DNA of 64,000 nucleotides from Candidatus Woesearchaeota archaeon (GTDB lineage Archaea > Nanobdellota > Nanobdellia > Woesearchaeales > WAPY01): NCBI GenBank assembly GCA_049700835.1, contig JBNAUL010000002.1, positions 153,967-217,966 on the forward strand, given 5' to 3'. Position 1 is the stretch's first letter, and each line of letters begins with the position of its first letter. The position numbers were made by a program. Shown piece by piece: positions 30,001-33,000 of the stretch.

Positions 30001-33000
30001 ACGGCTTTGCGTTTTTTGAGGTTATTATCTCAACAACATCCCCGCTTTCAAGCTCCTTGTCTAAGCTCACTATTTTTCCATTTACAATCGCCTTGCTGCA
30101 CTTATCTCCCAAATGTGTATGAACAGCATATGCAAAATCAACAGGGGTTGAACCTTCTGGAAGTATTACCGAATCACCTTTTGGAGTGAGAACAACAATC
30201 TCGTTTTTGAACAAATCAATCTTTAAGTCCTCAAAGAATTTTTCTGCGCTCTCTGCTTCCTGAACCCAAGAGAGTATTCTCTTGAGCCAGTTTATTCTCC
30301 TATCAAAATCAGAATCCTTCTCTGTTCCTTTGTAGCGCCAATGAGCAGCAATTCCGTCCTCTGCATTGTAATGCATCTCCCAGGTTCTTATCTGAACCTC
30401 AATCGGCTTTTTTTCATAGAGCAAGGTTGTGTGGAGCGACTGGTAACCATTTGGTTTTGGAATTGCAATGTAATCCCTGAATTCTTTCATTATTGGAATG
30501 TATTTTGAATGCAGGTAGCCAAGGATTTTGTAGCAGTCATCAACTGTCTTTGTTATTATCCTTATCGCTATCAAGTCGTGTATCTCCTCAAAGCCCTTGT
30601 TTTTAGTAATCATCTTTTTGTAAATGCTGTAAAAATTTTTGGCTCTTCCAAACACCTCTACTTCATACCCATTTTCTGAAAGTTCCTTCTTAAACTTGTC
30701 AACAATTTCCTTTACTTCTGCTTCCCTTTCTTCTCTTTTCTTTCCAATCTTTTTTTTCAATTCTTCGTATGGTTCTGGATTAAGGTACTTAAAACAAAGA
30801 TCTTCCATTTCTGATTTTATGTTGTACATTCCGAGCTTGTATGCTATAGGAACATAGATTTCAAGGGTTTCTTTTGCCATTTCCTTCTGCCTTTCTGGTT
30901 CTAAAAACTTTAATGTCTTTATGTTATGCAATCTGTCAGCGAGCTTTACAAGTATTACTCTGTAGTCCTTGCCTGTTGCAAGAATTATCTTTCTTATGTT
31001 CTCTGCTATGTTCTCCTCTTTGCTCAACTTCACTCGCTGTATCTTTGTAACTCCATCAACTATCGTTGCAACATCCTCTCCAAATTCCTTCTTTATATCT
31101 TCTATCTTTACAGCAGTGTCTTCAACGCAGTCGTGAAGCAGGGCTGCAACTATTGTTTGCGTGTCGCATCTTAATTCAGAGAGAATATAAGCTACCTCTG
31201 TAAGGTGTATGAAATACGGCTCTCCTGATTTTCTAAGCTGCCTCTCATGCTTCTTTTTTGCAAAATCGTATGCCTTGCTTATCAGCTGAAAGTCGAGTTT
31301 TGGATTGAGCTCTTTAATGCTTTTCAGAAATTCCTCTTTGCTCATTTCCTTTGTGACTTCTGCGTAGGACATATTAATACAATGTTTATTCTATTATTAA
31401 AAACTTTTGATTCTACAGGAAAAAATAAAACGAGAATGCTTGAAGTTTGAGAAATTAAATCCCCGCCCCCGGACTCGAACCAGGAACCTTCCGGTTTCAA
31501 CGACCAGCTGTCCTGCTTTCATTCCTTCAAATTATGAGCGTCTGCAAGAATCTACAGCCGGACGCTCTAACCATTGAGCTAGGCGGGGTTTGCCTTTGCT
31601 AATTAAAAGCAAGATTCTCAATAAAAAGTAGTAGAAAACCCTTTATTTATAAAGTTTGTCATATTTTGAAATTTTAAATCATCACGCATCAGCAAAAAAA
31701 CAAAAAATTTATAAATAGGATCTATTGCCTAATTTTGATGGCATGGCAATCTTTCTTAGTCGTAAAAAGTAGTGACTGATACTTTTAACTCCGAGAATAA
31801 AATACGGTTTTTAAGACGAGAGATTGCCATAAAGCTTGAAAATATGGAAAAGAAGAATAATAATACAAAAATCGCAAAAAACTCCTTAAAGCCCCGGTGG
31901 TGTAGCGGTTTATCATAGAGCCCTGTCGAGGCTCTGACCCGGGTTCGAGAAAGAAAAAGAAAATTCGGAAATCCCGGCCGGGGCGTCCATTTCATGCGGG
32001 CCGGTAGCTCAGCCTGGAAGCTTTTAAAAAAAGCTGGGCAACAGAGCATCGGACTTTTAATCCGGTGGTCGCGAGTTCGAAAAATCAATTTTGAAAATCT
32101 CGTCCGGCCCGTTCAAAATTTAAAATGCAAAACACAAAAAAAGAGTGGAATTGGAATTCGTTTTTTCTATATTTAAAAAACAAGAGGGATTGTGATTAAA
32201 ATGAAAACCATAAAGCATGAATTAGTTCCTGAACACATAAAAGTCTCTGAGAGCGAGAAGAAAGAATTGTTGGAAAAGTATAAGATTTCTTTGAACGAAC
32301 TTCCAAGAATATTGAAGAACGACCCTGCCATAGCTCACCTGAATGTAAAGGAAGGTGATGTTATAAAAATAATAAGAAAAAGCGAGTCTGCAGGGCAGTC
32401 AGTTTACTATAGGGTGGTTGTTTATGAGTAAGATGCACAATGTTTTGTTGAAAAAAATTTTTGAAGAAGAATCATTTACAAAGTCAGACATAGAATCTTT
32501 CAACAATTTCATTGATTACGAGCTTAATGAGATAATAAAAGAAGAGCAAAACATTGAACCAACAATAATACCTCATAACCTTGAAAGCTTCAAGATAAGG
32601 TTTGACAAAATCTCTGTCTCAAAGCCAGAGTTGATAGAGGCTGACGGTTCAAAGCGAATGCTCTATCCCATGGAAGCAAGGTTGAGAAAGATTACATATG
32701 CAGCTCCAATATATTTGACAGTCAGCGCCCATGCAAATGGTGTTCAGAGGGAATCCATAAAGGTAGTCATAGGAAACCTTCCAATAATGCTAAAATCAAA
32801 GTACTGCCACCTATACAATCTCAGTGAAGAAAAACTTATTGAGGTTGGGGAAGACCCAAAAGACACAGGAGGTTATTTCATAATAAACGGCAGCGAAAAG
32901 GTTCTTGTGAAAATAGAAGATTTAGCATCAAACAAATTTGTAGTTACAAAAATAACAACAGGAACCGCAAGGTATGTTGGAAAAATATTCTCAGAAAGGG

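What a model noticed while it worked through the whole genome (the two positions that open the first line are those of the whole stretch)
31891..32111. Six tRNA genes with T-loop (59/60) introns complete the decoding set
Six tRNA genes that ARAGORN and Rfam miss or truncate carry a bulge-helix-bulge intron in the T-loop between positions 59 and 60: Asp-GUC (C2 185857-185951, +), Lys-UUU (C2 185964-186077, +, also a D-loop intron), Glu-UUC (C2 44760-44876, -), Ala-UGC in the 16S-23S spacer (C2 211087-211200, -), Leu-GAG (C1 182537-182672, +, also an anticodon-loop intron) and Ser-GCU (C3 60951-61100, +, also an anticodon-loop intron). With them, and with three corrected readings (C2 309877-309996 is Gln-UUG, C2 222461-222591 is Cys-GCA, C1 443428-443549 is Ser-GGA), the genome has 46 tRNA genes for all 20 amino acids; without them Asp would have no tRNA.
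Evidence so far: Own stem-matching scan finds full cloverleafs once 16-46 nt are removed from the T-loop; in all six, nt 54-57 pair 4 of 4 with the four letters before a 3-nt bulge that precedes the 3' T-stem, the canonical bulge-helix-bulge geometry, and the spliced loop reads TTCRANT. Rfam tRNA gives no, weak (E 0.03, 0.5) or truncated (58 nt) hits there and ARAGORN none. The Asp-Lys pair matches in 5 of 5 other genomes of the family; T-loop introns of other sequence but with the helix kept were found in 4 of them and in 2 further families.
(Added by a program. Inside this text positions count along the whole contig: contig position 153,967 is position 1 of the stretch shown here. "Call 12" and the like, gene names such as g00115 and contig names such as C1 are that model's own, and its searches are not shown. 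The text may have been shortened before it was handed on; [...] marks where a part breaks off. The agent that wrote the report below was given it as the finding of a first reader that could run no searches.)

Follow-up and report, generated by a model that had tools for sequence, protein, structure and literature searches.

The report
Archaeal tRNA genes with T-loop introns
Six essential tRNA genes of this tiny Woesearchaeota-type archaeon are each interrupted by a short protein-spliced intron in the T-loop, which hides them from standard tRNA finders; the genes are real, but this kind of intron is already known.

Summary
All six genes (Asp, Lys and Ala lie in the window) have a 7/7 acceptor stem, a 5/5 T-stem and a 4/4 helix between nt 54-57 and intron nt -6..-3.

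A scan that ignored that helix recovered only five new tRNAs, all with 4/4. The sixth, Lys, needs its D-loop intron removed first. Chance gives 4/4 in 4.35% of comparable pairs.

Relatives support it:
- Uninterrupted tRNA-Asp orthologues align across the insertion.
- 36 genes picked without the helix criterion have 4/4 in 30 and 3/4 in 6.
- Such introns turned up in 28 of 41 genomes of the order.

About 25% of codons depend on the six. The genome has one alpha-type splicing endonuclease (EndA) and the RNA ligase RtcB.

Corrections: I count 45 tRNA genes, not 46.

Introns at 59/60 are known: ARMAN-2 pre-tRNA-Cys is cleaved there in vitro (PMC3239211). Incomplete tRNA sets in DPANN archaea have also been reported (PMC5829648). 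This scan has noted the same feature in other genomes. No RNA data exist, so the splice sites remain inferred.

Verdict: new members of a known kind.

The parts
31891..31985 (+). tRNA-Asp(GUC) gene, 95 nt; the only Asp tRNA gene in the genome
   Evidence: Acceptor 7/7, T-stem 5/5. ARAGORN calls Asp-gtc after in-script splicing. No other Asp.
31950..31971 (+). Asp T-loop intron, 22 nt, between nt 59 and 60; relaxed hBH type with no inner helix
   Evidence: H TTCG/CGGA 4/4, bulges AGA and AAT, interior unfolded. It is the only removal with H=4 and h=5. Contigs of related strains carry 8-9 nt deletions inside it.
31998..32111 (+). tRNA-Lys(UUU) gene, 114 nt, two introns, 12 nt downstream of Asp
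   Evidence: Acceptor 7/7, T-stem 5/5. ARAGORN calls Lys-ttt once both inserts are removed. The same two-intron layout occurs in G001, G008, G031 and G037.
32019..32040 (+). Lys D-loop intron, 22 nt after nt 21 of the gene; HBh' type with a weak outer helix. Boundaries could shift by 1-2 nt
   Evidence: Best BHB is H 4/4, h 1, h' 6. Alternatives within 1 nt score nearly as well.
32082..32097 (+). Lys T-loop intron, 16 nt, 59/60; relaxed hBH type
   Evidence: H TTCG/TGAA 4/4 including one G-U, bulges AAA and AAT. Only removal with H=4 and h=5.
57121..57234 (-). tRNA-Ala(UGC) gene, 114 nt, in the 16S-23S spacer
   Evidence: Lies between SSU 57291-58801 and LSU 54090-57009. Rfam covers only 57177-57234. 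ARAGORN calls Ala-tgc after splicing.
57135..57174 (-). Ala T-loop intron, 40 nt, 59/60; an 11-bp hairpin that does not abut the central helix
   Evidence: H TTCA/TGAA 4/4, bulges AAC and ATT, interior hairpin -8.9 kcal/mol. Intron index 60, length 40. T-loop introns of 23-40 nt occur in Ala-UGC of six other genomes.

Best explanation
These are functional tRNA genes. Each primary transcript carries a short intron between T-loop nucleotides 59 and 60.

In the precursor, nt 54-57 pair with the four intron nucleotides that lie three positions before nt 61. This 4-bp helix stacks on the T-stem. It leaves nt 58, 59 and the first intron nucleotide as one 3-nt bulge. The last two intron nucleotides plus nt 60 form the other bulge. 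That is a bulge-helix-bulge (BHB) motif.

The genome's single alpha-type splicing endonuclease (EndA, 212 aa) would cut after the second nucleotide of each bulge. The ligase RtcB would then join the exons. This restores a 7-nt TTCRANT loop so that the T-loop/D-loop elbow can form.

Leu has the full strict motif. Glu, Ser and Ala have an inner hairpin that is slightly out of register. Asp and Lys have none (relaxed hBH).

Shown here: the sequence geometry, its non-random nature, its conservation, and the presence of the enzymes. Inferred: that cleavage and ligation happen, and at exactly these phosphates.
For: - Stems are 7/7, 5/5 and 4/4 in 6 of 6 genes.
- A helix-blind scan finds only these genes as new tRNAs, all with 4/4, against a 4.35% background.
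- A stem-only scan returns the six plus one rRNA hit.
- The claimed excision is the only one with H=4 and h=5.
- The spliced loops have A59 in 5 of 6 and T60 in 6 of 6. The 39 uninterrupted tRNAs have A59 in 34 of 39 and T60 in 37 of 39.
- Eight uninterrupted Asp orthologues align gaplessly outside the insert.
- Within the family the intron interiors differ in length (15-28 nt) and sequence, while the YGRA + 3-nt end is kept.
- Of 36 relatives' genes picked with no helix criterion, 30 have 4/4 and 6 have 3/4. Sliding the partner by 1-3 nt gives at most 1 of 36. Shuffling partners reaches 30 in 0 of 2000 trials.
- One EndA gene and RtcB are present.
- The six serve 24.9% of codons in 381 long ORFs, and Asp has no other gene.
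- ARMAN-2 pre-tRNA-Cys with an hBH intron at 59/60 is cleaved in vitro by its EndA (PMC3239211, passages read).
Against: - No RNA data: no run on record as RNA holds the locus. Excision and exact junctions are therefore unobserved.
- Five of the six lack a strict inner helix next to the bulge. The only EndA found is alpha-only. It lacks the lysine-rich C-domain insertion seen in the N. equitans alpha subunit. The literature says typical alpha4 enzymes need strict motifs (PMC3239211, PMC6379350).
- Homology alone cannot tell 59/60 from 58/59.
- Related genomes are not independent, so the shuffle test overstates significance.
- I could not score spliced sequences with Infernal or tRNAscan-SE.
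Confidence: 0.9

Rival explanations
1. The introns are real, but the cuts fall one nucleotide upstream, at 58/59. The mature nt 59 would then come from the intron's last base.
For: MAFFT places the gap after TTCGA in the Asp alignment. For the window's own Asp gene, the 58/59 product would carry the same T-loop (TTCGAAT) as the uninterrupted orthologues.
Against: - BHB geometry, by analogy with 37/38, puts the cuts after the second bulge nucleotide, which is 59/60.
- Under 58/59 only 2 of 6 loops would have A59, against 5 of 6 under 59/60. The genome norm is 34 of 39.
- In relatives, nt 59 under 59/60 is A in 44 of 55. Under 58/59 it would be G in 34 of 55.
- The ARMAN-2 precedent is 59/60 (PMC3239211).
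Confidence: 0.05
2. The genes are pseudogenes, inactivated by insertions in the T-loop. The missing tRNAs are encoded elsewhere or supplied by a host.
For: The assembly has 18 gaps of 100 N. DPANN archaea are often host-dependent (my own knowledge).
Against: - All stems are perfect.
- The inserts sit at one exact position and carry a conserved splicing motif across 28 genomes.
- Exons are conserved while intron interiors drift.
- No other gene for Asp, Lys-UUU, Glu-UUC, Ala-UGC, Leu-GAG or Ser-GCU was found by three kinds of scan.
- The genome is 98.66% complete.
Confidence: 0.02
3. The inserts are not removed by EndA. Either they stay as enlarged T-loops, or another route removes them, such as self-splicing or another nuclease.
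For: The only EndA is alpha-type and lacks the known specificity insertion. Asp and Lys lack the inner helix.
Against: - At 16-46 nt the inserts are far too short for group I or II introns.
- The conserved 3-4-3 geometry has no other known purpose.
- A 23-53 nt T-loop could not form the elbow (established tRNA structure, my own knowledge).
- Kaneta et al. already link alpha4-type EndA in DPANN lineages with disrupted tRNA genes (PMC5829648, passages read).
Confidence: 0.03

Closest known systems
Candidatus Micrarchaeum acidiphilum (ARMAN-2) pre-tRNA-Cys(GCA), 13-nt intron at 59/60, and pre-tRNA-Pro(GGG), introns at 53/54 and 59/60 (Fujishima et al. 2011, PMC3239211; passages read)
   Same: Same position (59/60) and same T-stem-anchored BHB. 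Both relaxed hBH and strict hBHBh' forms occur. The host is also a DPANN archaeon with a small genome. Cleavage of the 59/60 hBH substrate was shown in vitro.
   Different: The ARMAN-2 enzyme is a three-unit epsilon2 EndA with its own specificity loops. Here the only EndA is a single alpha unit. The isoacceptors differ. Here the same position is hit in six genes of one genome and in many genomes of the order.
Non-canonical and multiple tRNA introns of Crenarchaeota and Thermoproteales (Marck & Grosjean 2003; Sugahara et al.; cited in PMC6379350 and PMC8450103, passages read; original papers recalled, not read)
   Same: BHB or relaxed BHB introns in D-loop, T-loop and elsewhere. Up to three per gene. 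Standard finders miss them.
   Different: [quoted passage not shown] Introns there spread over many positions. In the loci sampled here they concentrate at 37/38, 59/60 and the D-loop.
alpha4-type EndA of DPANN lineages linked to disrupted tRNA genes (Kaneta et al. 2018, PMC5829648; passages read, Figure 7 and the alignments not seen)
   Same: Single alpha-type EndA, many disrupted tRNA genes, and an explicit statement that tRNA sets predicted for DPANN genomes are incomplete and need manual curation.
   Different: That paper attributes broad specificity to an L3 loop. In this protein the Tyr-to-His stretch has the M. jannaschii length. It is 6 residues shorter than in the N. equitans alpha subunit. 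I could not check how its Woesearchaeota sequence was scored.
T-arm introns of Asgard archaea (bioRxiv 10.64898/2026.10.13.758758; passages read)
   Same: [quoted passage not shown]
   Different: Different phylum, and a far heavier intron load (92-95% of genes interrupted, as quoted there).

Membership tests
Archaeal BHB (EndA-spliced) tRNA intron at non-canonical position 59/60 | 4-bp central helix flanked by two 3-nt bulges on opposite strands, cut after the second bulge nucleotide | tested here: met
   nt 54-57 pair 4/4 with intron nt -6..-3 in 6 of 6 genes. The bulges are 58-59-i1 and i(-2)-i(-1)-60. Background frequency is 4.35%. The cut positions are inferred from geometry.
Archaeal BHB (EndA-spliced) tRNA intron at non-canonical position 59/60 | Outer helix h made of exon sequence (here the T-stem), stacked on the central helix | tested here: met
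   T-stem 5/5 directly next to the central helix in 6 of 6.
Archaeal BHB (EndA-spliced) tRNA intron at non-canonical position 59/60 | Removal restores a canonical cloverleaf with a 7-nt T-loop | tested here: met
   ARAGORN recognises 5 of 6 after T-loop splicing, and Lys after its D-loop intron is also removed. The loops read TTCRANT. A59 and T60 match the genome's other tRNAs.
Archaeal BHB (EndA-spliced) tRNA intron at non-canonical position 59/60 | Splicing endonuclease and RNA ligase encoded by the organism | tested here: met
   EndA with PF02778 and PF01974 at C1:100459-101094. RtcB (PF01139) at C1:258658-259944, E 6e-172.
Archaeal BHB (EndA-spliced) tRNA intron at non-canonical position 59/60 | Intron actually excised from the transcript | not testable with these tools
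   No run on record as RNA holds the locus.
Strict hBHBh' motif (substrate of typical alpha4 / alpha'2 EndA) | Inner helix h' of at least 2-3 bp abutting both the 5' bulge and the central helix | tested here: not met
   Adjacent h' pairs are Leu 8, Asp 2, Lys 2, Ala 1, Glu 0 and Ser 0. Glu, Ser and Ala have hairpins out of register. The Asp and Lys interiors do not fold. So 1 of 6 is strict and 5 of 6 are relaxed.
alpha4-type (single-unit) archaeal EndA | One gene with one N-terminal and one catalytic C-terminal domain; no beta subunit or tandem units in the genome | tested here: met
   212 aa, with one PF02778 and one PF01974 domain. It is the only hit in the genome by Pfam, by self-search and by a family HMM run with --max; the next best is E 0.066. 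One hit per genome in 40 of 41 relatives. The tetrameric state was not tested.
EndA with the N. equitans / ARMAN-2 lysine-rich C-domain insertion (L3 of Kaneta 2018) | Extra residues between the catalytic Tyr and His of the C-terminal domain | tested here: not met
   The query aligns without gaps to M. jannaschii 1A79 over this stretch. It is 6 residues shorter than N. equitans 3IEY_A. Tyr-to-His spacing is 10 in 79 of 80 Woesearchaeota homologues, and 1 lacked the motif. That this site is L3 rests on PMC3239211 text, not on a figure I saw.

The most novel reading that the evidence does not exclude
In Woesearchaeales a plain single-unit (alpha4-type) EndA would process relaxed hBH/HBh' introns in T- and D-loops. 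It has no L1, L2 or L3 insertion, judged by alignment to M. jannaschii and N. equitans. That would be a further, undescribed route to broad substrate specificity. Candidates for the source are the conserved K-P-G loop before the catalytic His, or the variable Lys/Arg-rich N-terminal tail. Position 59/60 would then be an order-wide intron hot spot that systematically hides essential tRNAs from annotation.
Probability: 0.4. Interest if true: 0.5.

Novelty: new member of a known kind. Interest (0 to 1): 0.3.

Why it matters
Practical value: standard finders (ARAGORN, Rfam tRNA) miss six genes that serve about a quarter of this organism's codons, including the only tRNA-Asp. Annotations of such genomes would then wrongly suggest missing tRNAs or dependence on a host. 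The same blind spot applies to at least 28 of the 41 related genomes sampled.

Biological value: it adds a clean, comparative data set of T-loop BHB introns in an order whose only endonuclease is alpha-type. That bears on the open question of what gives archaeal EndA its broad substrate range.

It does not reveal a new mechanism. Introns at 59/60 and their in-vitro cleavage were described in 2011.

Tried and rejected
- A loose stem-only scan (T-arm + helix + 7/7 acceptor with G-U allowed) was not discriminating. It gave 74 hits in the genome, 41 in the reversed genome and 8-30 in shuffles. I replaced it with ARAGORN-validated and GC-weighted scans.
An intact-T-arm plus acceptor scan found 0 candidates outside the 45. 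blastn-short with all 45 genes gave only short AT-rich intron matches. ARAGORN's 'Glu-ttc' at C2:323492-323659 has no sensible BHB and no Rfam hit, so I treat it as false.
- RNA evidence: no RNA holder is listed. The four runs laid are DNA contigs and show no joints.
- Ala in the rRNA spacer had no match in the five family genomes. rRNA operons are often unassembled, so this says nothing either way.
- A second EndA subunit was sought four ways and not found.
- Supplement of PMC5829648: one garbled hit for 'Woesearchaeota', which was unusable.
- A paper search for '59 60' with tRNA, intron and archaea returned only irrelevant papers. A search for Woesearchaeota + tRNA + intron + splicing endonuclease returned 2 papers, neither describing these genes.
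- I considered and rejected group I/II introns (too short), split or permuted tRNAs (exons are collinear), and repeat-element introns as noted by this scan elsewhere. There were no significant intron copies elsewhere in this genome.
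Full report
**Where and what.** The window is G000:C2:153967-217966. The genome is 1.07 Mb in 4 contigs, 32% G+C and 98.66% complete. It carries archaeal rRNAs. Contigs holding the nearest homologues of its EndA are titled 'Candidatus Woesearchaeota archaeon' or Nanoarchaeota. The row's coordinates 31891-32111 are the Asp-Lys pair.

The pair lies between two sets of genes:
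- Upstream on the minus strand are tRNA-Tyr (31460-31588) and a long RelA/SpoT homologue.
- Downstream are rpoH (32192-32431) and rpoB.

A third claimed gene, Ala-UGC, lies in the window between 16S and 23S (57121-57234, minus strand). The other three genes are on C2, C1 and C3, outside the window.

**Observation.** For all six genes a script counted acceptor stem 7/7, T-stem 5/5 and 4/4 pairs between nt 54-57 and intron nt -6..-3. The inserts are 22, 16, 42, 40, 28 and 46 nt.

ARAGORN finds none of the six. Rfam's tRNA model gives 21.2 bits (E 0.034) for Asp, 17 bits (E 0.49) for Glu and a 58-nt truncated hit for Ala. It gives nothing at E<=1 for Lys, Leu or Ser.

After in-script removal of the insert, ARAGORN recognises 5 of 6, and 0 of 6 unspliced. 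Leu is first mis-called because of its second intron. Lys needs its D-loop intron removed as well.

**Is it more than chance?** A loose stem scan was noisy: 74 hits against 41 in the reversed genome. I therefore ran three stricter tests.

1. A scan with no helix criterion. It removed every T-stem-compatible segment of 8-120 nt after TTYRAN (31,782 candidates) and kept those that ARAGORN accepts.
   - It gave 31 rows. Five are new genes (Asp, Glu, Ala, Leu, Ser), all with 4/4.
   - The other 26 rows are artefacts at already-known tRNA loci, with 0-3 pairs.
   - The reversed genome gave 6 rows and three shuffles gave 0, 3 and 1. None had 4/4.
2. A stem-only scan weighted for G-C pairs. It returned the six plus one hit inside 23S rRNA.
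3. An exhaustive test of removals. For each gene all 885-2,670 removals around the T-arm were tried. Among those giving a valid tRNA, the claimed one is the only one with a 4/4 helix stacked on a 5-bp outer helix.

The background frequency of 4/4 is 4.35%.

**Anatomy.** The geometry is the canonical anticodon-loop BHB moved to the T-arm. Base pair 53:61 plays the part of 31:39, nt 54-57 play 32-35, and the cuts fall after 59 and before 60, as they do after 37 and before 38. This mapping rests on my knowledge of the 37/38 case.

- Leu has an 8-bp inner helix abutting both elements, which is the strict hBHBh' motif.
- Glu and Ser have long hairpins with one extra nucleotide on the 3' side.
- Ala has an 11-bp hairpin set off by 4 nt on each side.
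- The Asp and Lys interiors do not fold (relaxed hBH).

Lys also has a 22-nt D-loop insert with H 4/4, h' 6 and h only 1. Its boundaries are ambiguous by 1-2 nt. Leu and Ser-GCU carry canonical 37/38 introns with H 4/4.

**Splice point.** Homology alone cannot separate 59/60 from 58/59. Under 59/60 the spliced loops have A59 in 5 of 6 and T60 in 6 of 6. That matches the genome's 39 uninterrupted tRNAs, which have A59 in 34 and T60 in 37. Under 58/59 only 2 of 6 would have A59.

**Relatives.** The Asp-Lys DNA matches in 40 of 41 genomes of the order (own genome included) and in 5 of 5 family members.
- Asp carries a T-loop insert in all six family genomes. Lengths run 15-28 nt and the interiors are unrelated, but the end is conserved (CGGA/CGAA + AAT/AGT).
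- Eight genomes of other families have an uninterrupted Asp that aligns gaplessly outside the insert.
- In the loci fetched with three queries (Asp-Lys, Glu, Ala), I found 55 distinct T-loop-intron genes in 28 of 41 genomes and 23 families. These were selected with H>=3. This is a lower bound, because only those loci were read.
- ARAGORN's anticodon labels for genes with further introns are unreliable.
- A set chosen with no helix criterion has 36 genes: 30 with 4/4 and 6 with 3/4. Sliding the partner by 1-3 nt gives at most 1 of 36 with 4/4. Shuffling partners among genes reached 30 in 0 of 2000 trials. The 57:-6 pair is A-T in 18, G-C in 11, G-U in 2 and unpaired in 5. Kin are not independent, so this is supportive and not a probability.
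- Lys keeps the two-intron layout in G001, G008, G031 and G037.
- Contigs of related strains in two public DNA runs span the locus. They carry 8-9 nt deletions inside the Asp intron and two substitutions inside the Lys T-loop intron. None of the 40 listed substitutions falls in an exon, but 23 more were not shown.

**Decoding set.** The corrected readings hold:
- Gln-UUG (H 4, h 7, h' 6).
- Cys-GCA (H 3, h 5, h' 4).
- Ser-GGA (H 3, h 8). A 'Pro-tgg' parse scores alike but does not fit a class II body.

I count 45 genes, that is 39 standard plus six, covering all 20 amino acids. Arg-CCG is lacking, and CGG makes up 0.02% of codons. I could not find a 46th. Asp has no other gene. By standard wobble rules the six serve 24.9% of 196,396 codons in 381 long ORFs.

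**Enzymes.** One EndA gene lies at C1:100459-101094 (212 aa, one N-terminal and one catalytic domain), next to a tRNase Z gene.
- No second unit was found by Pfam, by self-search or by a family HMM.
- There is one hit per genome in 40 of 41 relatives.
- The closest solved chains are the N. equitans alpha subunit and M. jannaschii alpha4.
- Over the Tyr-to-His stretch it has the M. jannaschii length. It is 6 residues shorter than N. equitans, and 79 of 80 homologues share this spacing.
- RtcB is present.

**What is known.** T-loop BHB introns are listed in reviews (PMC6379350). ARMAN-2 pre-tRNA-Cys has an hBH intron at 59/60 that its EndA cuts in vitro (PMC3239211). Kaneta et al. link alpha4 EndA in DPANN with disrupted tRNA genes, and say DPANN tRNA sets are incomplete and need curation (PMC5829648). 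For all three papers I read passages only. Notes of this scan report the same feature in other Woesearchaeota-type genomes.

**Verdict.** The genes are real and correctly interpreted, and they are new members of a known kind. The open point is how an alpha-only EndA without the known insertions handles relaxed motifs.

Noticed in passing
G000:C1:100459-101094 (-), outside the window; locus L031:1474-2112 (-): The only splicing endonuclease is a single alpha unit. It lacks the Lys-rich C-domain insertion of the N. equitans alpha subunit: Tyr-to-His spacing is 10 in 79 of 80 Woesearchaeota homologues. It has a conserved K-P-G loop and a variable (0-90 aa) Lys/Arg-rich N-terminal tail. Yet 5 of 6 T-loop introns here are relaxed motifs.
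   Followed up: partly
window 29348-31372 (-): A full-length RelA/SpoT homologue (HD_4 + RelA_SpoT + TGS + ACT, 674 aa) sits next to the tRNA cluster. Long RSH proteins are unusual in archaea (my own knowledge), so it may be a bacterial acquisition.
   Followed up: no
G000:C2:43908-44017 (+), outside the window: tRNA-Ile with anticodon UAU and a canonical intron (H 4/4, h 7). Only two CAU tRNAs exist. AUA (4.7% of codons) is therefore probably read by a UAU tRNA and not by an agmatidine-modified CAU tRNA, as recalled for N. equitans.
   Followed up: partly
L031:2197-3093 (+) = G000:C1, next to EndA: A tRNase Z gene (Lactamase_B_4) lies divergently beside the EndA gene, giving a small tRNA-processing gene pair.
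   Followed up: no
G000:C2:323492-323659; C2:309877-309996; C2:222459-222591; C1:443427-443551: ARAGORN with -i mis-assigns intron boundaries here. It reports a probable false 'Glu-ttc', plus 'Stop-tta', 'Lys-ttt' and 'Phe-aaa' for what the BHB rule reads as Gln-UUG, Cys-GCA and Ser-GGA.
   Followed up: yes
window 31952-31964 and 32085-32086: Contigs of related strains in public DNA runs X3 and X4 carry 8-9 nt deletions inside the Asp T-loop intron and two substitutions inside the Lys T-loop intron. The intron interiors are therefore drifting at strain level.
   Followed up: partly
relatives' loci, e.g. L007, L016, L017, L019, L024: A recurrent variant of the central helix pairs TTCG with AGAA, giving a G-A opposition at 57:-6. 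Seven of the 55 genes carry that opposition. This suggests a tolerated non-Watson-Crick closing pair.
   Followed up: no
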